Assembly: GCA_017412925.1 (NCBI GenBank)
Contig: JAFPVP010000095.1
Span: 9,981-73,980, forward strand
Reading direction: 5' to 3'
Source: Selenomonadaceae bacterium
Lineage (GTDB): Bacteria; Bacillota; Negativicutes; Selenomonadales; Selenomonadaceae
Length of the DNA: 64,000 nt
The notes under the pieces were generated by a model, which was given only the letters and a program-made list of their open reading frames with translations, ran no database searches and was not told where the DNA came from. Position numbers and translations under genes: made by a program. Of the stretch, positions 5,163 through 30,470 are shown piece after piece. How positions within the stretch are numbered: the first letter of the stretch is position 1; the number at the start of each line of letters is the position of its first letter.

Positions 5163-5813
5163 ATGTTCTATAAAGCTGAAGATGTTCGCGCTGTGTTTCA
5201 ACTTTTAAACGATTACAAAATAAATTATCTGCTTACGAAAAATATCGCGGATGAACTTCCCGACAAGCTCAAACTCGGCAAAGACATTGATTTAATCGTG
5301 CATATTAAAGATTACGAAAAATTTCAAGCCGTATTGAATCACTTCGGCTGGCAAAGAATCATTCACCCGCACGGCAAGGAACGCGGCTGGATTTTTATGT
5401 ACGGTGCTCACGAAAATTTTTTCATGACAAATCCTGCAAACGGCTTGATTGTGGACTTTTACGCCGAACTTTGCACGAAAAGCATCGAAAGAAATGCTTG
5501 GTTGCCGCTCGATAAAGTTATCCAGAAATCCATTTGGGAAAATAAAGTTTGGGACGCCGCCAATCAATGGTGGATCATGGACGATGAGAACATGGTCGTT
5601 TATCTCTTGACTAGGAGCATCTTTGAAAAAAATGGCTTTTCCGATGCTTACGTTCGCGAGATTGAGAAGCGCAAAAAATTCTTGGCTAATCCGACTGCGC
5701 GGCAGAAATTGGAAAAAGTTTTCTTCAAGTTCACGGATACTCTTATCGAAAAGGTAAATGGGGGGGGGTATGGAAAGATTCTTCTTTCCTACCTCACATT
5801 CACGGATTATTGA
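5163..5813 (+). CDS. nucleotidyltransferase-fold protein (NTP_transf_5-like), function unknown
   Basis: 216 aa. GKDIDLIV matches the hG[GS]...D-h-D-h NTase signature, in a context (LLNDYKINYLLTKN...FQAVLNHFGW) resembling the uncharacterised nucleotidyltransferase family. Visibly more AT-rich than the flanking flagellar genes. Contains a G9 tract at 5760-5768. Confidence 0.5.
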   Translation: MFYKAEDVRAVFQLLNDYKINYLLTKNIADELPDKLKLGKDIDLIVHIKDYEKFQAVLNHFGWQRIIHPHGKERGWIFMYGAHENFFMTNPANGLIVDFYAELCTKSIERNAWLPLDKVIQKSIWENKVWDAANQWWIMDDENMVVYLLTRSIFEKNGFSDAYVREIEKRKKFLANPTARQKLEKVFFKFTDTLIEKVNGGGYGKILLSYLTFTDY

Positions 5814-13215: not shown

Positions 13216-13278
13216 CGGTAAAATTTATTCCACGCTCTTTGTCCACTTTTCAAAAGTGGCGGCGTCATCAGAATTTAA
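13197..13278. repeat. 19-nt direct repeat (CGGCGTCATCAGAATTTAA) duplicating the flhA 3' end, flanking a 44-bp segment with a 17-nt palindrome
   Basis: Copies at 13197-13215 (contains the flhA stop) and 13260-13278. Palindrome CCACTTTTCAAAAGTGG at 13243-13259. Confidence 0.8.
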
Positions 13279-13281
13279 ACC

Positions 13282-13322
13282 AAAAAAATTAACCTCCGCG
13301 CAACTTGCGGAGGTTTTTTTGT
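13282..13322. terminator. bidirectional intrinsic terminator shared by flhA (+) and RTX gene 1 (-)
   Basis: A7 run, stem CCTCCGC (13293-13299) / GCGGAGG (13307-13313), then a T9 run. Confidence 0.7.
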
Positions 13323-13337
13323 TACCGCTGATTTTTT

Positions 13338-16160: not shown

Positions 16161-16192
16161 AAAACCATCTCCTTAAACTTTTTACAAAAGTT

Positions 16193-16218
16193 ATTATACC
16201 TGTTTTTTTTTTTGACAA
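16193..16218 (-). promoter_or_regulatory. putative promoter of RTX paralog 1 with an A-run in the spacer
   Basis: Minus strand: TTGTCA (16218-16213), 14-nt spacer (A10 + CAGG), TATAAT (16198-16193). The spacer is sub-optimal as sequenced. Confidence 0.4.
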
Positions 16219-16241
16219 TTCCCCACCGCAAATTTTTTTGC

Positions 16242-16271
16242 AAAAAAAAATTTCCCGCCGCAATGACGGGA
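16242..16271 (-). terminator. intrinsic terminator of RTX paralog 2
   Basis: Minus strand: TCCCGTC-ATTGC-GGCGGGA hairpin followed by AAA and T9. Confidence 0.65.
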
Positions 16272-16294
16272 AAAAATTTTTTTCCGCGCAGATT

Positions 16295-19200
16295 TTATTG
16301 CTTTTTTAAAGTGGAGCCGCTGATTTTATACGTTTCGTCGTTTATGTGGAAAGTTTTGGCGGTGAAATCTTTAAGAGTGACGGAGCCGCCACTGACTTTG
16401 AAAGTAATCGTGCCTTTGGATTTATTGTAAGAGGTCGTGAAGTCCAATCCGTCAAGTGTCAACGTGTCCTTAGAATCGAAGCCGAAGATTATATCTTTGC
16501 CGTCGCCGCTGTTGTAAATGAAAATATCCGCGCCGGCGTCGCCCCAGAGCGAATCATTGCCCGCGCCGCCAATGAGCGTGTCATTTCCTGCGTCGCCGTA
16601 AAGTTTATCATTGCCCGCGTTGCCGATGATTGAATCGTTGCCCGCCGCGCCATAGATCGTATCGGCTTTCGTGCCGCCGCTAATTATATTGTCAAGCGCG
16701 TTGCCCGTGATTTTAATGCCCTTTTTGAGCGCGGAGGCGTCGATAATTTTTGTTGTCAAATCAACGGTTACGGGCGAGGAAGTTTTACTTGTTACAATCA
16801 AACGCTTTGTGCCCGTGATGTTGAGCTTGTCCGAGTCAGCCGCACCGACCAAAGTTATCTTGCCCTTGCCGACCGTGACGATAATATTTTTGTTACTTGT
16901 CGTTGTCGAATAATAATCGCCCGAAACTGCAAGCGTCGAGGTCTTGTCGAAACCGTAAATAATATCGTTGCCGTCGCCCGACTTGTAATTAATCAAATTG
17001 TTCGCGCTCTCAAGTGAGATGCGATCATTGCCTTTGCCGCCCGTTATCGTCGCCGCCGTGCCGAAGACGCTGATTGTATCGTTGCCCTTGCCGCCGTCGA
17101 TTAAATTGTTCGCGGAGTTTGAGTTGCCGTAAATATAATCGTTACCGTCGCCGCCGAGAATGGTCGCATATTCTGCGCGGCTGTAAACGGAATCATTTCC
17201 CGCGCCGCCGTTTATTGAAGTTTTCGCGCCGCTGTTGGTAATGTAATCATTTCCTTTGTTTGCGTTGATTTTTACGGAGCCGGTTGCGTTCTCAATGTAA
17301 TCATCTTTTGTCGTGCCCTTGACGAGGGAGGAGCCGTCCCGGTTGCGGATAATGTTCCAAGTTTTATTAACGTCACTTATCGACGAAACGACATTAACTT
17401 TTTCCGCTCCGTAATCCGTCAACGTCAACTTTTTATTGTTGCTGAGCTTGAGGGTAATTTTATCGTTTGAACGCGAGGTAGCTTTTACTTTGAGCGAGCC
17501 GAGGACGATTGTATCGATTGCGTCAAAGCCGTTGAGTGTGTCGTTGCCCGCGCTGTAGACATAAGCCGTGCCGATACCTTCCTGCTTTGCAACATAATCA
17601 TTGCCCGTGCCGCCCGCAATCGTGTTGTAATCGCCGTAAGAGAAGACAGAATCATTGCCAGCCCCGCCGACGATTGAGGAATTCGCGCCGTTGTTGGTAA
17701 TGGAGTCATTGCCTTTGCCGCCGTCAATCACAGATTTTAATCCGTTGCTCGTGACAGTATCGTTATCGTCGCCGCCTTTGATTGTAACTTTCGAGCCGGC
17801 ACTGTAAATATAATTTTTCCCTGCGCCGCTGTTGATTGAAACGTTGCTGCCCGTGTTGGTGATTGAGTCGTTGCCCGCGCCGCCGTTCAATGTCACGTTG
17901 GATTCGCTGTTTACAATGGAATCGTTACCTTTGCCCGCGCTTATATTGAGTTTCTTTAACTTCGCCGCGCCGACTAAAGTTATCTTCCCGTCGCCGACCG
18001 TGATAATTAAATCGTCGCCGCTCTTGCTCTGAATGTAGGTGCCTTTGCCGCCGTCGATTTGGAGCGTCGAGGTCGTGTTGAAACCTTGAATAATGTCGTT
18101 GCCGTCGCCCGTCGTGTACTTGAATAAAACTTTCGAGCCGCCATTAGTAATGTAATCGTTGCCCGTGCCGGCGGTGATTGTGACTTTGGAGCCGCTGTTA
18201 GAAATGGTATCGTCACCTGCGCCCGCAGTGATTGTTGCATTTTCACCGTCGTAAGAGTTGGAAATATAATCGTTGCCCGCGCCGCTGTCGAGTTTTGCCT
18301 TTGTGCCCTCGTTGACGATTGAGTCGTTGCCGTCGCCGACGAGGATTTTTGCGCCGCTTCCCTTGTTATCAACAGAATCATTGCCCGCCCCGCCGACGAT
18401 TGAGACGTTCGCGCCGCTGTTAGTAATGTGGTCATCGTCTGCGCCGCCGTTTATCGTAACTTTTTGAGCGTCTTTGTTGATGATTATATCTTTACCTGCG
18501 CCGCCGTCAATTAAAGCTGTTGCGCCGCTGTTGCTGATTGAATCGTTGTCTGCCCCGCCGTTGATTGTCGAACTTGCGCCGCTGTTGCTAACGGTATCAT
18601 TGCCCGCGCCGCCATTGATTAAAACTTTCGAGCCGCTGTTGATAATTTTATCGTCGCCGTCGCCCGCGTCGAGTGTCGAATTCGTGCCGCTGTTTTTAAT
18701 TGAGTCGTTGCCCGCGCCGCTGACGATTGAGACGTTCGCGCCGCTGTTGCTAATTGTATCTTTGCCCGTGCCGCCGATAATGCTAACTTTTTTGCCGCCA
18801 GCGTTCGTGATTAAATTATCTCCGTTGCCGCCGTCAAGTGTCGAAGTCGCGCCGCTGTTGATTATGGTGTCGTTGTCGTCGCCGCCGCTGATTGAAACTT
18901 TGATGCCGCTGTTGCTGATTGAATCATTTCCGCCGCTACCGCTGATTGAGACGTTATCCGCATCGTTGAGCACGGTATCATTGCCCGCGCCGCCGACGAT
19001 TGTTTCTTGCGAGGAGTTGTTCTGGACATAATCGCCGTTATCGCTCAAATACGTTACGACCCTTTTGAATATCCCGTTAATGCTCACGGAAGGCAAAGAC
19101 GCCGCGCCGAGCAGAGTTATCTTGCTGTCGCCGACCGTTACGAAGATGTCATTACCGCTCGTCCGCCTAGCATAAGTGCCGGTGCCGTCGCCGATTACAA

Positions 19201-20473
19201 GGATTGCGCTTTCGTTAAAGCCTTCGATAGTGTCGTTACCGTCGCCCGTCGTATACTTGAACAGAACTTTTTCGCCGTCGTAGTTGCGAATGTAATCATC
19301 ACCTGCGCCGCTTTCGATTGTAGCTCTTTCATTCCATTGGTTAATGATTGTATCATTGCCCGCGCCGCCGACGATTGACGAGCTGTCGCCGCCGTAGCCG
19401 TTGTCAATGTAATCATCACCCGCGCCCGAATTAATTGTAGCTTTAGAACCGCCGTTGCTGATTGAGTCGTTGCCTGCGCCGCCATTGATTGACATGTTCG
19501 AGCCGGCGTCATGAGTACCTCCGTCGTAAAAGCCATTTTCGATCGTGTCGTTGCCGTCCCCGCCGTCGACTATAGAGTTATCGCCGCTGTGGTAAATTAA
19601 ATCATTACCCGCGCCGCCATTTATTGAAACTTGCGAGCCTTCGTTATAGATATAATCGTTACCGTCGCTGGCGTTGATTGAAACGTTTTCGCCGCCGTCG
19701 TTGCGAATGGAATCGTCGCCCGCGCCACCGTCGATTGTAACTTTTGAGCCGCCGCTGTTTTTAATGGAATCATTGCCCGCACCGCTAACGATTGACGAGT
19801 TTTCGCCTTCGTTTTCAATAGTGTCTGCGCCGTCGCCGCCAAGGAGCGTCGCAAAGTCGCTTTCGTATCTGTTAAATATGTAGTCATTGCCGTCGCCACT
19901 ATCGACTAAGCTGTTCTTGCCTTCGTTCCAAATGGAATCATTGCCCGCACCGCTGACGATTGACGAGTTTTCGCCGCCGTTTTCAATGGTATCGTTGCCT
20001 TCGCCGCCGTCGATTAAGCTGTTCTCGCCTTCCCAGCGGTTGTAAATGTAATCATCGCCCGCGCCCGCCTCGATTGAAACGTTCGAGCCGGCGTCGTAAG
20101 AGTAAGCGTCGTAGGAGCCGTTTTTAATCGTGTCGTCACCGTCGCCTCCGACGAGCAGAGCATAGTCGCCCTTCTCGTTTTCAATGTTGTCGTTGTCCGC
20201 GCCGCCGTAAATTTGAACATAAGCCGCCTCATCATTCCAGAAGGAGCCGTTGCCGCGCATAATCCTGTTGTCGCCCGAAATGATAATGTCGTCGCCTTCT
20301 TCAGGGTTGCCGTCCTCGTCGTAGTTGATCGTGTATCCGATGACGAGTTCCTTGTAATTGAAATTGCTTGGCGCGTAATAACGCTCAGTTGTCGAGTCAT
20401 TGAAAGTCTTTGTGCCCGTCGTGAATTCATAAGTAGCCGAGAACCTTTGGAGATTAAACGTGAACACCTTCAT
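16295..20473 (-). CDS. giant RTX-like calcium-binding repeat protein, paralog 2
   Basis: 1392 aa from ATG 20473 (AAGGAGAGG RBS 6 nt upstream; the ORF-track start at 20521 has none). Long arrays of ~19-aa units of the type xVSI(N/D)GGAGND(S/T/Y)IxNxGxx. Three GDGND-I-x-GF...ITL(V/L)GAA modules. Family C-terminal tail ...TFHINDETYKISGSTLKKQ. No Sec signal. Confidence 0.85.
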   Translation of the reverse strand: MKVFTFNLQRFSATYEFTTGTKTFNDSTTERYYAPSNFNYKELVIGYTINYDEDGNPEEGDDIIISGDNRIMRGNGSFWNDEAAYVQIYGGADNDNIENEKGDYALLVGGDGDDTIKNGSYDAYSYDAGSNVSIEAGAGDDYIYNRWEGENSLIDGGEGNDTIENGGENSSIVSGAGNDSIWNEGKNSLVDSGDGNDYIFNRYESDFATLLGGDGADTIENEGENSSIVSGAGNDSIKNSGGSKVTIDGGAGDDSIRNDGGENVSINASDGNDYIYNEGSQVSINGGAGNDLIYHSGDNSIVDGGDGNDTIENGFYDGGTHDAGSNMSINGGAGNDSISNGGSKATINSGAGDDYIDNGYGGDSSSIVGGAGNDTIINQWNERATIESGAGDDYIRNYDGEKVLFKYTTGDGNDTIEGFNESAILVIGDGTGTYARRTSGNDIFVTVGDSKITLLGAASLPSVSINGIFKRVVTYLSDNGDYVQNNSSQETIVGGAGNDTVLNDADNVSISGSGGNDSISNSGIKVSISGGDDNDTIINSGATSTLDGGNGDNLITNAGGKKVSIIGGTGKDTISNSGANVSIVSGAGNDSIKNSGTNSTLDAGDGDDKIINSGSKVLINGGAGNDTVSNSGASSTINGGADNDSISNSGATALIDGGAGKDIIINKDAQKVTINGGADDDHITNSGANVSIVGGAGNDSVDNKGSGAKILVGDGNDSIVNEGTKAKLDSGAGNDYISNSYDGENATITAGAGDDTISNSGSKVTITAGTGNDYITNGGSKVLFKYTTGDGNDIIQGFNTTSTLQIDGGKGTYIQSKSGDDLIITVGDGKITLVGAAKLKKLNISAGKGNDSIVNSESNVTLNGGAGNDSITNTGSNVSINSGAGKNYIYSAGSKVTIKGGDDNDTVTSNGLKSVIDGGKGNDSITNNGANSSIVGGAGNDSVFSYGDYNTIAGGTGNDYVAKQEGIGTAYVYSAGNDTLNGFDAIDTIVLGSLKVKATSRSNDKITLKLSNNKKLTLTDYGAEKVNVVSSISDVNKTWNIIRNRDGSSLVKGTTKDDYIENATGSVKINANKGNDYITNSGAKTSINGGAGNDSVYSRAEYATILGGDGNDYIYGNSNSANNLIDGGKGNDTISVFGTAATITGGKGNDRISLESANNLINYKSGDGNDIIYGFDKTSTLAVSGDYYSTTTSNKNIIVTVGKGKITLVGAADSDKLNITGTKRLIVTSKTSSPVTVDLTTKIIDASALKKGIKITGNALDNIISGGTKADTIYGAAGNDSIIGNAGNDKLYGDAGNDTLIGGAGNDSLWGDAGADIFIYNSGDGKDIIFGFDSKDTLTLDGLDFTTSYNKSKGTITFKVSGGSVTLKDFTAKTFHINDETYKISGSTLKKQ

Positions 20474-20519
20474 AAAAATCCTCTCCTTATACAAAAATTT
20501 TTTGGGGTGTTTTATATGC

Positions 20520-20549
20520 ATTATAGTAATTGTTTTTTTTTTTTGTCAA
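20520..20549 (-). promoter_or_regulatory. putative strong sigma70 promoter of RTX paralog 2 with an A-run in the spacer
   Basis: Minus strand: TTGACA (20549-20544), 18-nt spacer (A11 + CAATTAC), TATAAT (20525-20520). Confidence 0.55.
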
Positions 20550-20573
20550 TTCCCTACCGCAAATTTTTTTCGC

Positions 20574-20601
20574 AAAAAAAAATTCCCGCCTTTCGACGGG
20601 A
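20574..20601 (-). terminator. intrinsic terminator of RTX paralog 3
   Basis: Minus strand: TCCCG-TCGAAAGG-CGGGA hairpin followed by a T-run (A9 on the + strand at 20574-20582). Confidence 0.55.
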
Positions 20602-20620
20602 AAAAATTTCCGCGCAGATT

Positions 20621-22636
20621 TTATTGCTTAACGAGCTTTGAACCGCTGATTTTATACGTGTCGTCGTTTATGTTGAAAGTTTTGGCGGTAAAATCTTTCA
20701 GCGTTAAAGTTCCGTCTTCAAATTTAAACGTGACGGCAGAATTTTTATAAGTCGCCGTGAAATCAAGAGAATCAAGCGTCAAAGTGTCCTTTGCGTCGAA
20801 GCCGAAGATAATATCTTTGCCGGTGCCCGCCGAGTAAATGAAAACGTCCGCGCCGGCGTCGCCCCAGAGTGAATCATTGCCCGCGCCGCCGATAAGCGTA
20901 TCATTTCCCGCGCCGCCTTTGAGCGTGTCGCTACCAAGTCCGCCGTAAAGTTTATCGTTGCCCTTGTTGCCGATAATCGAATCGTTTCCGCCCTCGCCGT
21001 AAATTATATCGTTCTTGCTACCGCCCAAAATCACGTTGTCGAGCTTGTTGCCGACGATTTTAACCGCCGACGTGCGTTTAGAGGCGTCCGCCGTTCCAAT
21101 ATCCGCCGAAAGTGTCACGGGTGAAGTTGTTTTGTTATTAATCGTCAAAGTCGTCGCGCCGCTGACAACCGTCGTGTATTCCTTGCCTTTGGAATTAATC
21201 ATGCTGAGTTTTTTATCCGCGCCGTTTTTAACAGTCAACGTGCCCTTGCCGATAGTGAAGACGACATCGGAGCCGCTTAAAGTCGCCTTTGAAATCGCCG
21301 AGCCGACGGAAATTTTATCGCCCGCCGAATAATCGCTGATAACGTCCTTGCCCGCCGTGTAAATGAAAATATCGTTGCCTGCGCCGCCTTTTAACGTGTC
21401 ATTGCCCTTTCCGCCGTTCAAAGTGTCGTTTCCTTTGCCGCCGAGCAAATAATCGTTGCCCGCGCCGCTGATAATTGAATTTTCAAGCGCGTTGCCCGTG
21501 ATTTTTATATTTTTCTTGAGCGCGGAGGCTTTAACGTGCTTAACGGTGCTTTCAAAGTCCGCCAAATCCAGCGTGTCTTCCGTGTAGTCCGCCGTGACAG
21601 TCAAAACCGTTTTCTTTGCATTATAAGAGACGCCGTCGGGCACGCCGTCCGAATAATTTTTTGCGAGATAACGAAGACGAGTATACCCTGTAACTGAATT
21701 ATTGTTGTCCCTGTTGACAAAATCGCCATAGTTTTGCGAGGCGTCATCATAACCGCCGACGATTGCGCAAAGTCCCTCAAAAACATCTTTTGGCAAGTCT
21801 TCGAGATAGGCGATATTGGACTTCAAAGCAATTTCTGTAAAAGCCATTAAAAATAATCTGTCCAGATAGTTGGTAAATGGCGCAGTGTTGCCGTAACCTG
21901 TTGTCACATAAGGATAAGCCGTGCGATTGTAATATTGTTTACTGTCTAACGTTCCGTTTTTGTCGTTTTCGGTTAAATTATTGAGCAAATTGGCGTTGAG
22001 TATAATTTTAGCCTTGGAAAGGCGTCCCAAATCGTATTCAAAGTATATTGACATCGCGGTATGAATATTCATCGGATTCCAGTAGTCAAATTCTATGTCG
22101 ACTTCTTTGAGATTAGATGAATCGTCTGTAAAATTTATTCCGAGTGATTCGTTAATCAAGTCGACGGATTCGGGAATCCACCAATTATAAAGCGCACGAG
22201 TGACGAGTTTTTGTTTCGCGAGGAAATTTGCGCCGCTGTAGCCGAAATTTTCTCCGGCATCGACATCACTTTTCTCGACGTAGCTTATATTGAATTTTAA
22301 ACCGTTTTTCGTGAAGGAGTTGTATTGTGAGTTGGTGAGTTTTGTAGCCTTTGCGCTTTCGGGAACGATAGATTCGGCAGTTTTGGTAGTTTTACCACCG
22401 GCATCCGAACCTGTTATCGCACCTGTATCGGTATTAGTAATGCGAACGCCGCAATTTTGTTCGGCAAAATTTTGAGAAGCAACACCATAAGACGCATTGG
22501 TATATTTCTCTCTAAACACGTCATAACTGATTGCGCCCACAGCTTTAAAAGCCTCATCGGCAGCTTCTTCGCCGGTTTTTTTTGTTTCCACGAGAGTCTT
22601 GACGAATTTTTTGATAACTCCAACGGGTGTTGACAT
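20621..22636 (-). CDS. RTX-type calcium-binding repeat protein, paralog 3 (same N-terminal domain as paralog 1)
   Basis: 671 aa, AAGGAGA RBS. The N-terminus MSTPVGVIKKFV...NTDTGAITGSDAGG...ALYNWWIPESVDLINESLGINFTD aligns with paralog 1. RTX nonapeptides present. Family tail ...[19 protein letters not shown]. Confidence 0.85.
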   Translation of the reverse strand: MSTPVGVIKKFVKTLVETKKTGEEAADEAFKAVGAISYDVFREKYTNASYGVASQNFAEQNCGVRITNTDTGAITGSDAGGKTTKTAESIVPESAKATKLTNSQYNSFTKNGLKFNISYVEKSDVDAGENFGYSGANFLAKQKLVTRALYNWWIPESVDLINESLGINFTDDSSNLKEVDIEFDYWNPMNIHTAMSIYFEYDLGRLSKAKIILNANLLNNLTENDKNGTLDSKQYYNRTAYPYVTTGYGNTAPFTNYLDRLFLMAFTEIALKSNIAYLEDLPKDVFEGLCAIVGGYDDASQNYGDFVNRDNNNSVTGYTRLRYLAKNYSDGVPDGVSYNAKKTVLTVTADYTEDTLDLADFESTVKHVKASALKKNIKITGNALENSIISGAGNDYLLGGKGNDTLNGGKGNDTLKGGAGNDIFIYTAGKDVISDYSAGDKISVGSAISKATLSGSDVVFTIGKGTLTVKNGADKKLSMINSKGKEYTTVVSGATTLTINNKTTSPVTLSADIGTADASKRTSAVKIVGNKLDNVILGGSKNDIIYGEGGNDSIIGNKGNDKLYGGLGSDTLKGGAGNDTLIGGAGNDSLWGDAGADVFIYSAGTGKDIIFGFDAKDTLTLDSLDFTATYKNSAVTFKFEDGTLTLKDFTAKTFNINDDTYKISGSKLVKQ

Positions 22637-22764
22637 ACAAATCTCATCTCCTTAAAGGTTTCTCCAATGATATTACTAAAAATAACTTAATGAAAGAAAC
22701 CATAGGTAATACTTTTTGAACATTATACAGGTCGGAAAAAATTTTTGGTGTCCTGCCGGGACAC

Positions 22765-22791
22765 AAAAAAATCCCGCCGCTTTGACGGGAT
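22765..22791 (-). terminator. intrinsic terminator of RTX paralog 4
   Basis: Minus strand: ATCCCGTC-AAAGC-GGCGGGAT followed by T7. A second hairpin, GTGTCC-CGGCA-GGACAC, follows at 22748-22764. Confidence 0.65.
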
Positions 22792-22811
22792 TAAAAGTTT
22801 CAGTGCAGATT

Positions 22812-24755
22812 TTATTGTTTTTTGAAGCTTGAGCCGCTGATTTTATACGTTTCGTCGTTAATGTTAAAGGTTGTGGCTGTAAAATTCTTCAAAGTGATTG
22901 AACCGCTGCCAACCGTCAACGTAACAGCTCCATTTTTGTAAGCGGGCGTGAAATCGTCCATAATTTGTAAGAAATCGTCGTTGTCAAAGCCGAAAATAAC
23001 ATCTTTGCCGTCGCCGGTCATGTAAACAAAAGTATCTGCGCCCGCGTCGCCCCAAAGACTGTCATTTCCTTTGCCGCCCCAAATATTATCGTCGCCGTCG
23101 CCGCCGTAAATCTTATCGTTGCCAGCATTGCCGAGCAAATAATCATTTCCGCCCGCGCCGCGAATTGTATCGCCCTTCGAGCCGCCGTTTATCGTGTTTG
23201 CGATGTCGTTGCCGATAATTTCAACGGCGGTTTTGCGTTTCGAGGCATTTATAACTTTAATCGTGCTCCCCGCCGTGATTGGCGACTTTATATCGTCGGT
23301 TATGCTCAAAGTCGTGCCTCCAACAACCGTAACATAAGATTCTCCGTCAGAATCAGTCATTTTGAGCGTTTTTCCTTTGCCATCTTTGATAGTTAGGGTG
23401 CCTTTGCCGACTGTGAAGACAACATTAGAGCTTTTTACCGCAGATTTGGAGATTTCCGCGCCTAAAGCAATCGTATCGCCCGTTTCGTAGTCGGTGATCG
23501 TATCTTTTCCGCCCGTGTAGAAGAAAATATCGTTGCCCGCACCGCCCGTGAGCGTGTCATTGCCCGTTCCGCCCGCAAGTGAATCGTTTCCAGCACCGCC
23601 GAGGAGTTTATCATTGCCTTTTCCGCCGCTTAAAGTATCATTTCCAGCATCTCCCGCGAGTGAATCGTTGCCTGACTCGCCGAAAAGTTTATCGTTGCCC
23701 TTGCCGCCGCGAATTGTATCGTTATTTGAGCCGCCGTTTATCGTGTTTGCGATGTTATTGCCGATTATTTGAATTGGAGTCGTGCGTTTCGTGGCATTTA
23801 TAACTTTTATCTCGTTTCCTGCCGTCACGGGCGATTTTGTCTTGTCATTTACGGTCAATTCGGTCTCTCCGCTGACAATCGTATCATATTCCTTGCCAGA
23901 CGAATTAATAATGCTCAATTTCTTGCCTTTGCCGTCTTTAACAGTCAAATTTCCATTGCCAATAGTAAAAATAACGTCCGAACCGCTTAAATTTGCCTTT
24001 GAAATCGCCGCGGAGAGCTTAATTTTGTCTTCGCCCGCCGAATAATCGCTGATAACGTCCTTTCCACCCGTATAAATGAAAATATCGTTGCCTGCGCCGC
24101 CTGTAAGTGAATCATTTCCAGCTCCGCCGGTCAGACTGTCGTTGCCTTTGCCGCCTTTAATCAAATCATTGCCGCTACCGCCGATTAAGTAATCATTGCC
24201 GCTGCCGCCGACGATTGAATTATTCAGCGCGTTGCCCGTGATTTTTATAGCTTTGGTACGTGAGGAAGCGTCGATTTTTTCAATATCGGAGTCGACAGTT
24301 ATTTTTGAAGGGTCTGCATTAGTAATTTTCAAAAAATACGGCGTATCCCATTCGCAAATGAAATAATCGCCGCTGAAGAAGTACCTGTCATTCCATTTAT
24401 CTATGAACTTTCCATTTCTGGGAACAATACATGCATAATTTTCTGCTCCACGTTCACCATGATTATTTGGCTCACCACTTGCCCAATTTGTGTATGTTAC
24501 GGCTTCGCCCGTTACCCAAGTCCAATTTCCTTCATGTTCGGCATCGCTAAATCCAATGTAATATATCTTGTCTTCATTTCGACTGAAAAGATAGCTAACG
24601 ATTGCATTATTCTCTTCAGAATCATTGATAACAGCGAGGTGCCCGCCAAGAGATTCGCAATAAGCTTCTGCCGCTTCCCAAGTATCGGCTACATTCGAGT
24701 AGACATAATATTTGTGTCCGTCGTAAACGAAGGCGTCGGAAGGAATTTTATTCAT
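22812..24755 (-). CDS. C-type-lectin-domain / RTX calcium-binding repeat fusion protein, paralog 4
   Basis: 647 aa. The N-terminal ~135 aa has CTLD hallmarks (WEAAEAYCESLGGHLAVINDSEEN...WTW..G....YTNWASGEPNN...ENYACI...WNDRYF...FICEW). The rest is RTX repeats plus modules shared with paralogs 1 and 3. Family tail ...TFNINDETYKISGSSFKKQ. Confidence 0.85.
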   Translation of the reverse strand: MNKIPSDAFVYDGHKYYVYSNVADTWEAAEAYCESLGGHLAVINDSEENNAIVSYLFSRNEDKIYYIGFSDAEHEGNWTWVTGEAVTYTNWASGEPNNHGERGAENYACIVPRNGKFIDKWNDRYFFSGDYFICEWDTPYFLKITNADPSKITVDSDIEKIDASSRTKAIKITGNALNNSIVGGSGNDYLIGGSGNDLIKGGKGNDSLTGGAGNDSLTGGAGNDIFIYTGGKDVISDYSAGEDKIKLSAAISKANLSGSDVIFTIGNGNLTVKDGKGKKLSIINSSGKEYDTIVSGETELTVNDKTKSPVTAGNEIKVINATKRTTPIQIIGNNIANTINGGSNNDTIRGGKGNDKLFGESGNDSLAGDAGNDTLSGGKGNDKLLGGAGNDSLAGGTGNDTLTGGAGNDIFFYTGGKDTITDYETGDTIALGAEISKSAVKSSNVVFTVGKGTLTIKDGKGKTLKMTDSDGESYVTVVGGTTLSITDDIKSPITAGSTIKVINASKRKTAVEIIGNDIANTINGGSKGDTIRGAGGNDYLLGNAGNDKIYGGDGDDNIWGGKGNDSLWGDAGADTFVYMTGDGKDVIFGFDNDDFLQIMDDFTPAYKNGAVTLTVGSGSITLKNFTATTFNINDETYKISGSSFKKQ

Positions 24756-24807
24756 AAAATCATCTCCTCTTCAAAATATTGTTATTGTTATTACTAAACT
24801 CAGCCAT

Positions 24808-24868
24808 AAAATAGCCTCCTCACTAAAAATAAACGATATCGACAGAAATTTTTGCCGTGCAGACCTCC
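24808..24868 (-). promoter_or_regulatory. conserved 5' leader, copy 1 (upstream of the lectin-RTX gene)
   Basis: About 60 nt, nearly identical to 30010-30072. Minus strand: GGAGGTCTGCACGGCAAAAATTTCTGTCGATATCGTTTATTTTTAGTGAGGAGGCTATTTT-ATG. Confidence 0.6.
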
Positions 24869-24908
24869 TTTTTTACTAAAGAACAAAGAAAACAATACTT
24901 TCCCGCTT

Positions 24909-24939
24909 ATTATCCCCCCCCCCAATGCCCCGTTGTCAA
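24909..24939 (-). promoter_or_regulatory. putative promoter of the lectin-RTX gene with a G-run in the spacer
   Basis: Minus strand: TTGACA (24939-24934), 19-nt spacer (ACGGGGCATT + G9), GATAAT (24914-24909). The C10 run on the + strand is at 24914-24923. Confidence 0.45.
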
Positions 24940-24989
24940 GACTTTTTATAAAAAATTTTAAAAAAAACATGCGCGGCACTTAAAATAAT

Positions 24990-25023
24990 AAAAAAAAGCG
25001 GCTCCGCCATGTGACGAAGCCGT
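24990..25023 (-). terminator. intrinsic terminator of RTX paralog 5
   Basis: Minus strand: CGGCTTCG-TCACATGG-CGGAGCCG (one mismatch) followed by T8. Confidence 0.6.
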
Positions 25024-25046
25024 TATTTTTGTGTTTAAGCAGATTT

Positions 25047-27014
25047 TTATTGCTTAACGAGCTTTGAACCGCTGATTTTATACGTGTCGCTGTTAATGTG
25101 GAAGGTCGTAGCGGTAAATTCTTTAAGAGTGACCGAACCACCGCTAACTTTGAACGTAATCGCGTCATTTTTACTGTTGTAAGACGCCGTGAAGGCTAAA
25201 TTATCAAAAGTGAGCGTGTCTCCGTCTTCAAAACCGTAAATTATATCCTTGCCGTCGCCTTTCGCGTAGTAAAAATTATCTTTTCCGTCGTCGCCCCATA
25301 AACTGTCATTTCCTGCGCCACCCCACAACGAATCTCTGCCCGTGCCGCCTTTTATGCAGTCATTTCCTACGCCGCCGAGTAAAATATCGCCGTCTGCGCC
25401 GCCGTCGAGCGTGTCATTGCCTTTTCCGCCAACTAAACTGTCGTTTCCAGCCTCGCCAAGCAATTTATCATTGCCATCGCTGCCGTCAATCGTATCATTG
25501 CCCGCTCCTCCGAGCAAATTATCATTTCCTTTGCCGCCGTTAATCGTATCGTTGCCTTTGTCGCCGTTTAAGCTGTCATTTCCCGCGCCGCCGACTAATG
25601 TATCGTCATCATCGCCGCCAGAAATCGTATCGTCGCCATTTCCGCCAACTAAACTGTCATAACCCTTGTCTCCGAGTAAAATATCGTCGTCATCGCCGCC
25701 GGAAAGCGTATCGTCGCCTTGTCCGCCGCTTAAACTGTCATTTCCCTCGTCGCCAATCAAAATATCGTCGCCAGTGTAGCCTGAAAGCGTGTCATTGCCT
25801 TCGCCGCCGTTTAAACTGTCATTTCCTGCGCCGCCAAGCAAAATATCGTTATCATCGCCGCCGTCTAGCGTATCATTGCCCGCTCCGCCGTTTAAACTGT
25901 CGTGATTCGTGCCGCCGAGCAAAATATCATTGCCCGCGCCGCCGGAAAGCGTATCTTTTCCGTCTCCGCCGTACAAACTATCGTTTCCGCCGTTTCCGAA
26001 CAGTTTATCGTTGCCAATTCCGCCCCAAAGCGTATCTTTAGCCTTGCCGCCGACTATAGAATTGTTTTGCTCGTTGCCTTTTATCTTGATTGCCTTCGTT
26101 CGAGCCGTTCCGTCGATTGTTACGATGTCCGAATTGACCGTTACGACAGATTTATCCGAGTTCGTGACGATTTTAAGCGCAGTTTCTGCTTTTTTGCTGA
26201 CAATGTTGACCTTCGACAAGTCAGCCGCGCCGATTAAAGTAATTTTTCCGTCTCCAACAGTGATAATAACATCATTACCGCTCTTAGTCGTTGATAAATT
26301 CGCACCAGAAATGCTAAGAGTCGAAGTTTCGTTAAAACCTTCGATTGAATCGTTGCCGTCGCCATTTTTATAGGTAAGTAAAGCCTCTCTGCCGTTTCCG
26401 TACAAAATAATTTGGTCGTCGCCCTTGCCGCCAGTGATAGTTGCTTTATTCGCTCCGTTTTTAATGACATCAGCACCGTTTCCGCCGTCGAGTGTCATAC
26501 AAGATGCCCAGCCGTTTGAAATTGTATCCGCTCCATCGCCGCCGTAAATCGCTGTCAGCGAGCTGTAACTGTAATAATTGACAATTAAATCGTAACTCGC
26601 GCCGCCGTATATCGTTACTTCCGCGCCTTGATTAGAAATAGTGTCTGCGCCGTCGCCGCCGTCAATTTTGCAGCGATAACCGTAGTTTGAAATGTTATCT
26701 TCGCCTTCGCCGCCATAAATTGAAGTTAGCGAGGCGGAACTTTGGTAGTTGTAGAGATAATCTTTTCCCGATTCGCCGTCAATTATAGTTTTTGCAGCGT
26801 AGTTTAAGATTTTATCTGCGCCGTCGCCGCCATAAACCGCACTAATCGAGCCGTTACTGTCGTTGCAAAGGAAATCATCGCCGGATTTGCCATTTATCGT
26901 TACTTTCACGCCGCCAGAACAATCAATACTCAACCAATCGCCATTAAAAATTGAATCATCGCTGTTTGTGCCGGCAAGCAATGTATTCGAGGCGGTATTT
27001 TCTATCGTCGCCAT
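25047..27014 (-). CDS. RTX-type calcium-binding repeat protein, paralog 5
   Basis: 655 aa, AAGGAGG RBS. N-terminus [20 protein letters not shown]. Dense GGxGNDxL / GGDDDD repeats. The C-terminal half is near-identical to paralog 6. Tail ...[19 protein letters not shown]. Confidence 0.85.
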
Positions 27015-27031
27015 GAATTTAGCCTCCTTAT

Positions 27032-27057
27032 AAAAAAATCCCGCCGATTTGACGGGA
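27032..27057 (-). terminator. intrinsic terminator (possibly leaky) between RTX paralogs 6 and 5
   Basis: Minus strand: TCCCGTC-AAATC-GGCGGGA followed by T7. It is followed at once by the RBS of paralog 5, with no separate promoter visible. Confidence 0.6.
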
Positions 27058-27079
27058 AAAAAAGTTTCAGTGCAGATTT

Positions 27080-28798
27080 TTATTGCTTAACGAGCTTTGA
27101 ACCGCTGATTTTGTACGTGTCGCTGTTAATGTTGAATGTTGTCGCGGTGAAATCTTTAAGAGTGACCGAACCACCGCTGACTTTGAATGTAATTGCGTCA
27201 TTTTTACTGTTGTAAGACGCCGTGAACGCGAGATTATCAAAAGTGAGCGTGTCTTTGCTGTCGAAGCCGAAAATAACGTCTTTGCCGTCGCCTTTTGCGT
27301 AGAAAAATTTATCCGCGCCGTCGTCGCCCCATAAACTGTCATTTCCTGCGCCGCCCCACAAAGAATCTTTGCCCGTTCCGCCTTTTATGCAGTCATTTCC
27401 CGCGCCGCCGACTAATTTATCGCTATCCGCGCCACCGTCGAGCATATCATTGCCTTTTCCGCCGTTTAAGCTGTCATTTCCCGCGCTTCCGAGCAAATTA
27501 TCATTTCCCGCGCCGCCGTCGAGCGTATCATTGCCTTTTCCGCCGTTTAAGCTGTCATTTCCCGCGCCGCCGAACAATTCATCATCATCATCGCCGCCGG
27601 AGAGCGTATCGTTGCCATTTCCGCCTACTAAACTGTCATAACCCTTGTCTCCGAGTAAAATATCGTCGTCATCGCCGCCAGAAATCGTATCGTCGCCTTG
27701 TCCGCCGCTCAAACTGTCATTTCCCTCGTCGCCAATCAAAATATCGTCGCCAGTGTAGCCTGAAAGCGTATCATCGCCCTCTCCGCCGTTTAAACTGTCA
27801 TTTCCTGCGCCGCCGAGTAAAATATCGTCGTCATCGCCGCCGTCGAGCGTGTCATTGCCGATTCCGCCGTTCAAACTGTCATCATTACTGCCTCCGAGCA
27901 GAAAATCATTGCCTTTTCCGCCGTCGAGCGTATCTTTTCCGTCTCCGCCGTACAAACTATCATTTCCAGCGTTTCCGAGCAAAATATCGTTGCCGACGCC
28001 GCCCCAAAGTGTATCTTTTCCGCTTCCGCCGCTTATCGAGTTCGCTAATTTGTTGCCTTTTATCTTGATTGCCTTAGTTCTGGCGGTCGCGTTGATTGTT
28101 ACCACCGAAGAATTGACCGTTACAAGCGCGGCGTCAGAATTTGTGACAGTTTTAAGCGCAGTTTCCGACGGAGTGCCCTTTATGTTGATAGAATAGTTGC
28201 TAGACGCGCCGACGAGCGTAATATTCCCCGTTCCGACCGTGACGATGACATTATCGCCGCTTTTTTTGGTTGCGTAGGTGCCGCTCGCGATTGAAAGCGT
28301 GTCATTGTCGTTGAAACCGTAAATTATATTCTTTCCGTCGCCGTCATTGTAAATAATTACGTTTTTATCGGCATTCGCGCCCAAACTTATTTGATTATTG
28401 CCCGCACCGGCGTTGATTGTAGCATTTTCACTTTCATTTATAATGGTATCCGAGCCGGATTCACCATTTATTTTAATATTTGTGCCTTCTGAACCTTCAT
28501 TATATATATAATCGTTACCTTCGCCGGCGTTTATCGTTACGTTATAGCCATTTGATGTGCTGTGAATTGAATCATTACCTTTTCCGCCATTTATTGTGAC
28601 ATTATCGGCTCCATTATAAATGTCATCGTTGCCATCACCGCCGTAGATTATAACTTTTTCTGCAGCAGAATAATTACTAACTTCATCATCGCCATTTGCA
28701 GCACTAATCGTGACGTTTGAGCCGTTATTTTCGATATAATCATCGCTACTCGTGCCTGCAACCAGAGTATTGTTATCCCAATTACTAAAATTAGCCAT
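27080..28798 (-). CDS. RTX-type calcium-binding repeat protein, paralog 6
   Basis: 572 aa from ATG 28798 (AGGAGG RBS; the ORF-track start at 28846 lies inside the Uma2 3' end). N-terminus [20 protein letters not shown]. Tail ...[19 protein letters not shown]. Confidence 0.85.
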
Positions 28799-28830
28799 AA
28801 AACTACCTCCTAAATAAAAATCTTTAAAAA

Positions 28831-29415
28831 TTATCTGTAACCCCACTTGAAAATATATTTTAGCGGTATTTTTAAGCCTTCGAGAGTTTTAACCGGCACT
28901 TCATGCTTAATTTCGGCTTTTTCCTCGTCCGTCAGCAACTCCAATTCTTTATCGTCGAAGAGAATATATTCATCATCAAGATAATATTTGCCTTCATGCA
29001 GAAAATAAACGCTAATTACCTTCATGTACGGGTCGATAATCCAATATTCGCTAACGCCTTGAGCCTCATAAATGTCTTTTTTAATAGTGAGGTCATTTTT
29101 GCGCGTAGATTTCGATAAAACTTCGACGATCATATCAGGAACTCCATAAATTCCTCTGAACCAGTCGATAATCGACGAATTTTTTTCCGTAACGACTGAC
29201 AAATCGGGCTTTAAAGTTGTACCGTCTGGAAAATGAACGTCGGTATTGTCAGAAAACACGTATCCGCTATCGTTTTCGTCCAAAAAGCTCCCGATAATCA
29301 TTCCTAGACGCATAATTACTCCACCGTGAGTGGGATTCGGTGCAGGTGCCATAATTTTTTTACCTCTGATGATTTCATAGGACGGATAAAGAAGTCGTTC
29401 ATTGATAACCTCCAT
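28831..29415 (-). CDS. Uma2-family (DUF820, PD-(D/E)XK) putative endonuclease
   Basis: ...PDLSVV...[39 protein letters not shown]... is the Uma2 core pattern. ATG 29415 preferred, with an AGGAAG RBS. Confidence 0.8.
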
Positions 29416-29427
29416 AAAAACCACTTC

Positions 29428-30009
29428 CTATTCAAAGTACCAGCCAAAAATATTTCTAATTTTGACCTTGAAGCCGTCCAAAACAGCAACTGGAATTTCA
29501 AATTGGACTTCAGCGCGTTCTTCATCAGTCATATTCTCTAAATCATTGTCTTTGTAGTTCTGATATACATTGTCGAGAAAATATTTGCCGTCGCGAAGAA
29601 GATAAACTTCAATGCTCTCGCTCCAAGGATTGATAAGCCAATATTCTTTGACACCGTTGCGCTCGTAAACGTCTTTTTTAATCGTCATGTCTCGTTTCAT
29701 GGTTGAACGGGAAAAAATTTCTGCAACCATATCTGGTACGCCATAAAAATTTTCATCTTCATTGTTGAAGACGATATTATCATTTGCCGCGCCGATAAAT
29801 ATAAAATCTGGGCGCAAAGTATTTCCGTCGGGGAGATTAACATCAAAGTTATCGGAAAATGACGAGCCAAGCTTGTTAATGAATGCATGATTGCCAATCG
29901 TGAACATTAATCTGCCTACAATTTTACCATGACGCTTAAAAGGACTCGGTGCCATAAATTTTTCCCCCTCGATAAGCTCATAATCGTCGCGAATATCGAA
30001 AGCGAGCAT
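29428..30009 (-). CDS. Uma2-family (DUF820, PD-(D/E)XK) putative endonuclease, tandem paralog
   Basis: ...RPDFIFI...GVPDMVAEIFSRSTMKRDMTIKKDVYERNGVKEYWLINP... AAGGAGG RBS. Confidence 0.8.
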   Translation of the reverse strand: MLAFDIRDDYELIEGEKFMAPSPFKRHGKIVGRLMFTIGNHAFINKLGSSFSDNFDVNLPDGNTLRPDFIFIGAANDNIVFNNEDENFYGVPDMVAEIFSRSTMKRDMTIKKDVYERNGVKEYWLINPWSESIEVYLLRDGKYFLDNVYQNYKDNDLENMTDEERAEVQFEIPVAVLDGFKVKIRNIFGWYFE

Positions 30010-30072
30010 AAAATCACCTCCTTAACTAAAAATCAACCGACATCGACAGAAATTTTTGCCATTCACACCTCC
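30010..30072 (-). promoter_or_regulatory. conserved 5' leader, copy 2 (upstream of the Uma2-Uma2-RTX operon)
   Basis: Minus strand: GGAGGTGTGAATGGCAAAAATTTCTGTCGATGTCGGTTGATTTTTAGTTAAGGAGGTGATTTT-ATG. Aligns with 24808-24868 through the start codon. Confidence 0.6.
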
Positions 30073-30112
30073 TCCGCGCCGAAAAACCAATGGAAACGAG
30101 ATTTTCACAACG

Positions 30113-30140
30113 ATTATACACTATCGCGCCGATTTATCAA
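30113..30140 (-). promoter_or_regulatory. putative sigma70 promoter of the Uma2-Uma2-RTX6(-RTX5) transcription unit
   Basis: Minus strand: TTGATA (30140-30135), 16-nt spacer, TATAAT (30118-30113). Confidence 0.5.
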
Positions 30141-30145
30141 GGTTT

Positions 30146-30470
30146 CCAATGAAAATTTAAGTGTTGAGCTGAAATTTTTTGTTTTGAAACTGATTTTCTG
30201 GCTGTGAAACTGCTTTTCGGGCGTCGAAACCGATTTTTTGGCTGTGAAACGGATTTTGGAGCTGTGAAACGGATTTTTGAGTGTTGAAACGGATTTTTGA
30301 GTGTTGAAACGGATTTTTGAGCCGCGAAACGGAATTTTGAGCCTCGAAACGGAATTTTGAGCCTCGAAACGGAATTTTGAGCTGTGAACGGGCTTTGAAA
30401 GTGATTTTCGGGCGTTGAAAGTGATTTTGGGGCTCGAAAGTGGGGTTTGAGGGTGCGATTTTAGGGTCAA
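30146..30470. repeat. phased 20-bp tandem repeat array (~16 units, consensus GAAACGGATTTTTGAGYNNN), non-coding
   Basis: Unit starts fall exactly every 20 bp at 30186, 30206 ... 30386. There are two perfect adjacent duplicates (30266/30286 and 30326/30346). Units degenerate toward both ends. Confidence 0.85.

What the first reader, a model, noticed from the sequence alone, without database searches (positions are those of the whole stretch)
24909..24939. G10 homopolymer in the spacer of the lectin-RTX gene promoter (TTGACA-N19-GATAAT)
Seen: the minus strand reads TTGACA-ACGGGGCATT-G9-GATAAT. The C10 run on the + strand is at 24914-24923, and the last G of the run is the first base of the -10 hexamer. 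The spacer is 19 nt, so loss of one or two G would bring it to the optimal 18-17 nt.

Established: poly-G/C tracts are the most slippage-prone simple repeats in bacterial contingency genes.

Inference: this is a third, sequence-unrelated homopolymer switch in the same island, controlling the only paralog that carries a carbohydrate-binding head.
Basis: partly seen in the sequence, partly recalled or inferred. Interest (0 to 1): 0.7.

Follow-up and report, generated by a model that had tools for sequence, protein, structure and literature searches.

The report
Variable poly-G tract in lectin-gene promoter
A run of 8 to 10 G's sits between the two recognition boxes of the promoter of a secreted sugar-binding (lectin-RTX) protein in an uncultured rumen bacterium, and its length differs between almost identical populations, so it is very probably a classic slippage "volume knob" for that gene, found here in a bacterial group where none had been described.

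Summary
The minus strand reads TTGACA (24939-24934), a 19-nt spacer ending in G10 (24923-24914), then GATAAT (24914-24909). This lies 50 nt after a strong terminator and about 147 nt before a 647-aa C-type-lectin/RTX gene.

The tract is not chance. The window has no other G/C run of 6-8 nt; only this C10 and one G9 exceed 5 nt.

The window comes from a rumen Selenomonadaceae MAG. Seven further ruminant-gut metagenome contigs encode the identical protein and show only 6 substitution events across 16.3 kb. Counting the window, tract lengths are G10 (5), G9 (2) and G8 (1), giving spacers of 19, 18 and 17 nt. All other homopolymers in these contigs, up to A12, are invariant.

A sister lineage (~95% identity) has the same terminator, AT-rich upstream block, TTGACA and GATAAT. 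Its spacer is an interrupted, non-repetitive 18 nt (GTGGTGTAG) and is identical in 5 samples.

Best reading: a slipped-strand, promoter-spacer contingency locus of the porA/fetA type. Hypermutability and position are shown. The effect on transcription is inferred.

The two poly-A "switches" nearby did not vary. I rate it a new member of a known kind, of moderate interest.

The parts
24990..25022 (-). Intrinsic terminator of the upstream 655-aa RTX gene: a 10-bp stem with 7 GC pairs, a 4-nt loop, then C+T8. It isolates the lectin gene from upstream transcription.
   Evidence: best terminator hit in 13000-30200; same in L009. Conserved in the sister lineage.
24940..24962 (-). AT-rich UP-element-like block (TTTAAAATTTTTTATAAAAAGTC) immediately upstream of the -35 hexamer.
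   Evidence: 13 of 14 specified positions match the UP consensus nnAAAWWTWTTTTnnnAAAnnn (consensus recalled from memory). Identical in all 8 samples, with one difference in the sister lineage.
24934..24939 (-). -35 hexamer TTGACA (perfect consensus).
   Evidence: Conserved in 8 samples and in 5 sister-lineage contigs.
24915..24933 (-). Promoter spacer, 19 nt in this window (ACGGGGCATT + G9). It is 18 nt in L011 and L012, and 17 nt in L009.
24914..24923 (-). Hypermutable poly-G tract (C10 on the + strand). Alleles G8, G9 and G10 are seen in nature.
   Evidence: It is the only homopolymer that varies. In the sister lineage it is replaced by the invariant GTGGTGTAG.
24909..24914 (-). -10 hexamer GATAAT (5 of 6).
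24900..24902 (-). Predicted transcription start, placed 7 nt after the -10 hexamer. Not mapped.
   Evidence: Inference from promoter geometry only.
24756..24899 (-). 5' leader of about 147 nt. It has no Rfam family and no unusual folding. Part of it (CAAAAATTTCTGTCGATATCGTTTATTTTTAGTGAGGAGG) is shared with the leader of an RTX paralog in the sister lineage.
24760..24807 (-). 15-codon upstream ORF MAEFSNNNNNILKRR* with a strong Shine-Dalgarno sequence. It is a relic of the start of an RTX paralog: compare [10 protein letters not shown] of the 572-aa gene and MASF of the sister-lineage 579-aa gene. Its stop codon lies next to the lectin gene's ribosome-binding site.
22812..24755 (-). 647-aa lectin-RTX gene. 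It has an N-terminal C-type lectin domain (EPN, E and WND calcium/sugar-site residues) followed by RTX nonapeptide blocks. The protein is identical in all 8 samples.

Best explanation
The G tract is a simple-sequence contingency locus inside a sigma-70-type promoter. Slipped-strand mispairing during replication adds or removes G's. This changes the distance between a perfect -35 (TTGACA) and a good -10 (GATAAT) from 17 nt (G8) through 18 nt (G9) to 19 nt (G10). Because RNA polymerase needs 17 +/- 1 nt, the promoter should act as a heritable but reversible volume control. It would be strong at G8 and G9 (aided by an UP-like AT block) and weak at G10 and above or G7 and below. It controls a monocistronic, type-I-secreted, calcium-dependent mannose-type lectin fused to RTX repeats in a rumen Selenomonadaceae bacterium. 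Shown: the tract, its position between the hexamers, its natural length polymorphism in otherwise near-clonal DNA, and the fixed 18-nt non-repeat spacer in the sister lineage. Inferred: that these hexamers are the functional promoter, that length changes alter transcription, and that switching is frequent within one population.
For: (1) Anatomy. A strong terminator is followed 50 nt later by UP-like block / TTGACA / spacer / GATAAT, and no other promoter-like site on this strand lies between the terminator and the start codon.
(2) Polymorphism. Tract lengths are G10 in five samples (window, L010, L013, L014, L031), G9 in two (L011, L012) and G8 in one (L009), from different ENA samples and two assembly pipelines.
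(3) Background. Over window 31000-14701 (16.3 kb) these sequences show only 6 substitution events, and every indel lies in a repeat. The tract changed at least twice, which is about 500 times the per-nucleotide substitution rate.
(4) Internal controls. A12, A11, two A9 and two A8 runs in the same contigs never vary.
(5) Natural control. The sister lineage (94-96% identity in GH32, FlhA and PFK) has the orthologous terminator, UP block, TTGACA and GATAAT. There GTGGTGTAG replaces the G run, the spacer is 18 nt, and it is identical in 5 samples. Four of 9 tract positions differ between lineages against 6 of 137 flanking positions (Fisher p=0.0012).
(6) The run is a compositional outlier.
(7) The mechanism is established for fetA poly-C and porA poly-G in Neisseria (PMC5320596).
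Against: There are no transcription data, so the TSS is unmapped and no allele has a measured expression level. The commonest allele (G10, 19 nt) is the predicted weak state, and I cannot say how weak. Only consensus assemblies were available, so within-population heterogeneity and reversibility are not shown. The sample is small (8) and independence is not fully verifiable: several contigs come from one study, and the window's MAG may derive from one of the same samples. Conservation of the hexamers in the sister lineage is not by itself significant at ~95% background identity. No G/C tract was found upstream of the RTX homologues examined in other Selenomonadaceae contigs (P0016, P0053, P0076 and P0002), so this is not a family-wide design.
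Confidence: 0.75

Rival explanations
1. The tract is hypermutable but functionally neutral. It slips because it is a G run, yet promoter output is little affected, or the real promoter is elsewhere and the tract lies upstream of it or in an untranslated leader.
For: No expression data exist. The predicted weak allele G10 is the most common. A G at position -14 is kept at every tract length and might buffer spacing effects (inference).
Against: The tract lies exactly between a perfect -35 and a 5-of-6 -10, preceded by an UP-like block and a terminator. No alternative promoter-like site exists on this strand before the start codon. The observed alleles cover 17-19 nt, around the 18 nt fixed in the sister lineage. 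Long G/C runs are otherwise absent from the window, which argues that such runs are not tolerated at random.
Confidence: 0.13
2. The length differences are sequencing or assembly artefacts at a homopolymer, and the tract is really fixed.
For: All data are short-read metagenome consensus contigs, and homopolymers are error-prone.
Against: All three lengths occur within one pipeline (XIEF21 scaffolds: G8, G9, G10) and two within another (k141 contigs: G9, G10). Longer A12, A11 and A9 runs in the same contigs are never miscalled. A coding G9 is constant in 5 contigs. If 'XIEF21' denotes Xie et al. 2021, which I infer from the record name only, those libraries were PCR-free TruSeq on NovaSeq (PMC8199421). 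L009 and L012 share a linked SNP at 18313 and both carry shortened tracts.
Confidence: 0.04
3. The G run acts in some other way. It could be part of a sigma-28 (flagellar) promoter, since the island abuts the flagellar operon. It could be a G-quadruplex or regulator-binding element. It could be a frameshift site in a small ORF.
For: GGGGATAA matches 6 of 8 positions of the sigma-28 -10 GCCGATAA (consensus from memory). A 59-codon GTG-initiated ORF (24979..24800) spans the tract.
Against: No TAAA lies 15 nt upstream at any allele length (sequence reading). The small ORF has no ribosome-binding site, is low-complexity, and overlaps the terminator tail and the promoter. GGGG-CATT-G10 cannot supply four G3 runs. 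The perfect TTGACA and the UP block fit sigma-70.
Confidence: 0.05

Closest known systems
Neisseria meningitidis porA (poly-G) and N. gonorrhoeae fetA (poly-C) promoter-spacer phase variation (van der Ende 1995; Carson 2000, as summarised in PMC5320596)
   Same: A G/C homopolymer of about 8-14 nt lies between the -35 and -10 hexamers. Length differs between strains. Spacer length sets graded expression of a surface or secreted protein.
   Different: The phylum differs (Negativicutes rumen commensal versus Betaproteobacteria pathogens), as does the controlled gene (lectin-RTX versus porin or siderophore receptor). Expression effects are measured there and only inferred here.
Mycoplasma hyorhinis vlp lipoprotein family (poly-A tract in each paralog's promoter plus in-frame repeat size variation); recalled from memory
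   Same: Both have a tandem array of paralogous surface or secreted protein genes with homopolymers between promoter hexamers. In-frame repeat copy-number variation occurs in the coding regions (81-bp and ~500-bp variants).
   Different: Here only one gene has a varying tract, and it is poly-G. The poly-A cassette promoters (A12, A11; A8 in L022) did not vary among near-identical samples.
Helicobacter pylori sabA promoter-proximal poly-T 'rheostat', Treponema pallidum tpr poly-G tracts (compare PMC7864442), and Bordetella pertussis fim poly-C; recalled from memory
   Same: Homopolymer length near or in a promoter tunes expression of an adhesin or surface antigen. sabA, like this gene, encodes a glycan-binding protein.
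   Different: In sabA, tpr and fim the tract lies upstream of or beside the core promoter and acts through DNA bending or activator phasing. Here it lies within the core spacer.
RTX adhesins with sugar-binding ligand domains (for example the PA14 domain of the Marinobacter adhesin, PMC6650083)
   Same: A type-I-secretion-type RTX protein carrying a calcium-dependent carbohydrate-binding module.
   Different: The module here is a metazoan-type C-type lectin domain with EPN/WND, at the extreme N-terminus of a small (647-aa) protein. It is not a PA14 domain near the tip of a giant fibrillar adhesin. No N-terminal retention module was recognised.

Membership tests
SSR-mediated transcriptional phase variation (promoter-spacer homopolymer, porA/fetA type) | Uninterrupted G/C homopolymer long enough to slip (about 7-8 nt or more) | tested here: met
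   G10 at 24914-24923. It is a compositional outlier.
SSR-mediated transcriptional phase variation (promoter-spacer homopolymer, porA/fetA type) | Tract lies between recognisable -35 and -10 hexamers upstream of the regulated gene | tested here: met
   TTGACA-N17/18/19-GATAAT, 11 of 12 matches, after a terminator and an UP-like block. The orthologous promoter in the sister lineage has a fixed 18-nt spacer.
SSR-mediated transcriptional phase variation (promoter-spacer homopolymer, porA/fetA type) | Tract length differs among closely related strains while the flanks stay constant | tested here: met
   G8, G9 and G10 occur in 8 samples with 6 substitution events per 16.3 kb. Other homopolymers are invariant.
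SSR-mediated transcriptional phase variation (promoter-spacer homopolymer, porA/fetA type) | These hexamers are the functional promoter (TSS about 7 nt after the -10) | not testable with these tools
   No transcript data. Needs 5'-RACE or metatranscriptomes.
SSR-mediated transcriptional phase variation (promoter-spacer homopolymer, porA/fetA type) | Expression level depends on tract length, and switching is frequent and reversible within a clone | not testable with these tools
   Only consensus contigs were available. At least 2 independent length changes are inferred from linked SNPs.
RTX / type I secretion substrates | Blocks of GGxGxD calcium-binding nonapeptide repeats | tested here: met
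   PF00353, E=9.7e-50, 7 stretches.
RTX / type I secretion substrates | Cognate ABC transporter, membrane-fusion protein and TolC-like channel, plus a C-terminal secretion signal | tested here: inconclusive
   A TolC-family gene lies at 49289-50803. No ABC or MFP pair was identified in the window. The C-termini of several paralogs end similarly in ...KLVKQ or ...FKKQ, but the signal was not tested.
C-type lectin carbohydrate-recognition domain | Sequence membership (Pfam Lectin_C above the gathering score; similarity to solved CRDs) | tested here: met
   PF00059, 63.9 bits against a cutoff of 22.6. PDB hits include SP-D, mannose receptor, MBP-A and DC-SIGN at E=1e-11 to 1e-31.
C-type lectin carbohydrate-recognition domain | Calcium-site-2 sugar-binding residues (EPN or QPD, E, WND) | tested here: met
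   The sequence reads ...NWASGEPNNHGERGAENYAC...KWNDRY.... EPN implies mannose-type specificity, by established knowledge of C-type lectins. Binding itself was not tested.
C-type lectin carbohydrate-recognition domain | Two conserved disulfides (four cysteines) | tested here: inconclusive
   The domain has only three cysteines (in AYCES, YACIV and FICEW), and the Cys that usually follows WND is absent.
   A12 (20533-20544) and A11 (16203-16213) are invariant in 5-6 samples. The cassette does differ between paralogs and lineages: A12 versus A8 in L022.

The most novel reading that the evidence does not exclude
The region between the GH32 gene and flhA is a dedicated diversity island for secreted RTX proteins in rumen Selenomonadaceae. 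It would combine several independent layers of rapid variation. One is a poly-G promoter rheostat on the lectin-headed paralog. Another is exchange of N-terminal heads, with the 15-codon uORF as the scar of such a swap. Others are in-frame repeat copy-number changes, whole-gene content differences between ~95%-identical lineages, and a variable 20-bp tandem array upstream of the operon promoter. The poly-G tract would have been created by selection (4 substitutions in 9 nt) to make lectin display stochastic. That would let subpopulations switch attachment to mannose-type glycans of feed particles, fungi, protozoa or host mucus. It would be the first SSR contingency system in Negativicutes and in a rumen commensal.
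Probability: 0.3. Interest if true: 0.65.

Novelty: new member of a known kind. Interest (0 to 1): 0.45.

Why it matters
Simple-sequence contingency loci are known almost entirely from host-adapted pathogens such as Neisseria, Haemophilus, Campylobacter, Helicobacter, Mycoplasma and Treponema. Full-text searches here found no report of SSR phase variation for Selenomonas or other Negativicutes.

This case suggests that an abundant, uncultured rumen commensal uses the same strategy. The evidence comes purely from public metagenomes, including a natural negative control in a sister lineage. The regulated gene is unusual: a metazoan-type, EPN C-type lectin fused to RTX repeats.

It gives a concrete and cheap hypothesis to test, namely read-level tract counts and metatranscriptomes from existing rumen datasets. 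It also flags the lectin as a probable niche-attachment factor whose display is under fluctuating selection.

Tried and rejected
Searches and checks that led nowhere:
- An exact-flank pattern scan of JGI metagenomes with a variable gap gave 0 hits.
- Protein-seeded scans of GTDB representative genomes and of JGI metagenomes each returned only one distant (27-34% identity) RTX relative, L006 and L017.
- Looking up the upstream 655-aa protein collapsed to 2 places and added nothing.
- The FliY lookup failed because that exact product is not on record.
- The Uma2 lookup found only short extra contigs that stop before the promoter.
- Rfam had no family near its gathering score in 24600-25100.
- The leader folds no better than shuffled sequence, z=-0.5. 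A riboswitch or attenuator reading is therefore dropped.

Readings considered and rejected:
- A sigma-28 promoter: no TAAA at the right distance.
- A frameshift switch in a small ORF across the tract: no ribosome-binding site and low complexity.
- A G-quadruplex: too few G runs.
- Poly-G as a family-wide feature: no G/C run of 6 or more lies upstream of P0016, P0053 (a lectin-containing homologue) or either RTX gene in L022. Contigs carrying P0076 and P0027 have no G/C run of 7 or more, except the conserved coding run noted separately.
- The poly-A tracts as active switches: invariant in all samples, so unsupported although not excluded.

Full report
**1. Observation.**
On the minus strand, a perfect -35 hexamer TTGACA (24939-24934) is followed by ACGGGGCATT and nine G's. 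A tenth G (24914) is the first base of GATAAT (24914-24909). The spacer is 19 nt, and the + strand C10 is at 24914-24923.

The run is a clear outlier. The window has 7 G/C runs of 5 nt, none of 6-8, then one G9 and this C10. A first-order Markov model expects about 0.02 runs of 10 or more per window.

**2. Context.**
The tract lies in a 291-nt intergenic region of a tandem array of six same-strand RTX genes, from about 28797 down to 13338.
- The upstream 655-aa gene ends with the strongest intrinsic terminator of the region: 25022-24999 followed by C and T8 (24997-24990).
- Next comes an AT-rich block that matches the UP-element consensus at 13 of 14 specified positions (consensus recalled from memory).
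- Then come the -35, the spacer and the -10.
- A leader of about 147 nt follows, with no Rfam family and no unusual fold.
- The leader contains a 15-codon upstream ORF, MAEFSNNNNNILKRR*, with a strong ribosome-binding site.
- The 647-aa gene follows (24755..22812).

That protein has an N-terminal C-type lectin domain: Pfam Lectin_C E=2.6e-17, and PDB matches to SP-D, mannose receptor, MBP-A and DC-SIGN. It carries the canonical EPN, E and WND calcium/sugar ligands (sequence), followed by RTX nonapeptide blocks. No other paralog has a recognisable carbohydrate-binding domain.

The organism is an uncultured rumen Selenomonadaceae MAG; the protein is NCBI II857_06345, with relatives in Quinella. 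It is a diderm Negativicute, consistent with FliY, FlhA, FlhB, BamA and TolC in the window.

**3. Is the tract variable?**
Exact-protein look-ups retrieved seven further contigs from different ENA ruminant-gut metagenome assemblies that encode the identical lectin-RTX protein.

| Tract | Spacer | Samples |
|---|---|---|
| G10 | 19 nt | window, L010, L013, L014, L031 |
| G9 | 18 nt | L011, L012 |
| G8 | 17 nt | L009 |

These sequences are nearly clonal. Over window 31000-14701 (16.3 kb) there are only 6 substitution events. Every indel lies in a repeat: the G tract, an 81-bp RTX-repeat unit, a 20-bp tandem array and a ~500-bp domain repeat.

L009 (G8) and L012 (G9) share a linked SNP at 18313 that L011 (G9) lacks, so at least two slippage events are required. 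That is roughly 500 times the per-nucleotide substitution rate.

Several points argue against artefact:
- All three lengths occur among scaffolds from one pipeline (the XIEF21 records), and two among MEGAHIT k141 contigs.
- If XIEF21 denotes Xie et al. 2021, which I infer from the record name only, those libraries were PCR-free on NovaSeq.
- Longer A12, A11, A9 and A8 runs in the same contigs never differ.
- A coding G9 is constant in five contigs.

**4. A natural control.**
A look-up of homologue P0027 happened to return the syntenic island (GH32 ... RTX genes ... flhA) of a sister lineage. That lineage is 94-96% identical in GH32, FlhA and PFK.

Its second RTX gene is preceded by the orthologous region: the same terminator, AT block, TTGACA and GATAAT. 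The spacer, however, is ACGGGGTATTGTGGTGTA, 18 nt. GTGGTGTAG stands where the window lineage has G8-10. This interrupted version is identical in all five samples that cover it.

Three things follow:
- The promoter module is older than the homopolymer and normally has an 18-nt spacer.
- Length variation appears only where the run is uninterrupted.
- The observed alleles (17, 18 and 19 nt) bracket the fixed value.

Four of the 9 tract positions differ between lineages, against 6 of 137 flanking positions (Fisher p=0.0012). This fits either selected creation of a mutable tract or its decay by interruption in the sister lineage. The direction is unknown.

In the sister lineage the promoter drives an RTX gene starting MASF.... 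The uORF in the window is homologous to that start and to the start of the 572-aa paralog ([10 protein letters not shown]). The lectin-headed gene therefore arose by replacement of the 5' part of an RTX gene. In other homologues the lectin domain is internal.

**5. Mechanism.**
The best explanation is a slipped-strand promoter-spacer contingency locus. G8 or G9 gives an optimal 17-18 nt and G10 gives 19 nt, so the tract would act as a heritable, reversible volume control on a monocistronic lectin-RTX gene.
- Shown: the anatomy, the hypermutability and the comparative control.
- Inferred: the TSS (about 24900-24902), the effect on transcription, and reversibility within a population.

The same mechanism is documented for fetA and porA in Neisseria (PMC5320596).

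Rival readings are given less weight for the reasons listed with each: a neutral hypermutable tract, an assembly artefact, a sigma-28 promoter, a frameshift in a small ORF, and a G-quadruplex.

**6. The 'third switch' claim.**
Two other paralogs share a homologous promoter cassette, GGAATTGACA-(A)n-CAATTAC-TATAAT.
- For the 1392-aa gene it is a perfect TTGACA-N18-TATAAT with A12 (20549-20520).
- For the 940-aa gene it is TTGTCA-N14-TATAAT with A11, which is too short to work as written.
- A related contig, L022, has the cassette with A12 and with A8, giving spacers of 18 and 14 nt.

The A tracts therefore differ between paralogs and lineages. They did not vary in any of the 5-6 near-identical samples.

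**7. Comparison and novelty.**
The locus meets every sequence-level criterion of porA/fetA-type transcriptional phase variation. The functional criteria could not be tested. It is therefore a new member of a known kind.

What is new is the host, the evidence type and the regulated product. The host is a Negativicutes rumen commensal, for which full-text searches found no SSR phase-variation reports. The evidence is metagenome-derived polymorphism with a sister-lineage control. The product is an EPN C-type lectin fused to RTX repeats, whereas the one characterised RTX sugar-binding module I retrieved is a PA14 domain (PMC6650083).

Interest is moderate at 0.45: the mechanism is textbook, but the case is clean and directly testable with existing data.

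Noticed in passing
window 30174-30442 (minus-strand orientation), just upstream of TTGATA-N16-TATAAT at 30140-30113: About 13 copies of a 20-bp tandem repeat (unit about CTCAAAATTCCGTTTCGAGG) lie directly upstream of the promoter of the Uma2-Uma2-RTX572-RTX655 operon. Copy number differs between samples (-1 unit in L012, -2 in L013). The array is also present in the sister lineage (L038, about 5880-6050). The 169-aa ORF called across it is probably spurious. Its function is unknown; repeated regulator sites or phased A-tract bending are possibilities.
   Followed up: partly
window 24760-24807 (-): A 15-codon uORF, MAEFSNNNNNILKRR*, with a strong Shine-Dalgarno sequence. It is homologous to the first codons of RTX paralogs, so it is a scar of an N-terminal head replacement. 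Its stop codon lies 4 nt before the lectin start codon and next to the lectin gene's ribosome-binding site, so translational coupling is possible.
   Followed up: partly
window 5760-5768 (+), inside ORF 5163..5813: This is the only other long G/C run (G9). It lies near the 3' end of a 216-aa ORF (weak NTP_transf_5 match) inserted in the flagellar operon between fliY and the cheY-like/fliO genes. Its length is 9 in all 5 contigs that cover it, including the sister lineage. It may be a translational contingency site or simply conserved.
   Followed up: partly
window about 5163-6708; loci L025 and L027: The flagellar export operon carries variable non-flagellar inserts. Here they are 216-, 73- and 220-aa ORFs. 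They are absent in L025. L027 has a 143-aa Lectin_C protein plus a 384-aa protein between the fliO and fliP positions.
   Followed up: no
window 20520-20549 and 16195-16225 (-); L022 about 5670-5720 and 7920-7960: A shared promoter cassette, GGAATTGACA-(A)n-CAATTAC-TATAAT, sits upstream of several RTX paralogs. Tracts are A12 (spacer 18), A11 with a shortened right half (spacer 14), and A8 (spacer 14). They were invariant among near-identical samples but differ between paralogs.
   Followed up: yes
window about 27556-27640 (572-aa gene) and about 14283-14770 (940-aa gene): In-frame repeat copy-number variants occur between samples. An 81-bp unit (27 aa, three RTX nonamers) is lost in L010, giving a 545-aa product. 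A ~504-553-bp block is gained in L010, L011 and L031, giving 1108- or 1109-aa products in L010 and L011.
   Followed up: partly
window 13338-30009 versus L038 5694-12652: The island between the GH32 gene and flhA has different gene content in lineages that are ~95% identical elsewhere. The window has two Uma2 genes and six RTX genes; the sister lineage has three RTX genes and no Uma2. In another Selenomonadaceae MAG (L015) a Uma2 gene also directly precedes an RTX gene.
   Followed up: partly
window 27015-27079 (-): The 655-aa RTX gene has no promoter of its own. A terminator-like hairpin (27057-27039) is followed immediately by a Shine-Dalgarno sequence and ATG. This suggests partial read-through or attenuation from the 572-aa gene.
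   Followed up: no
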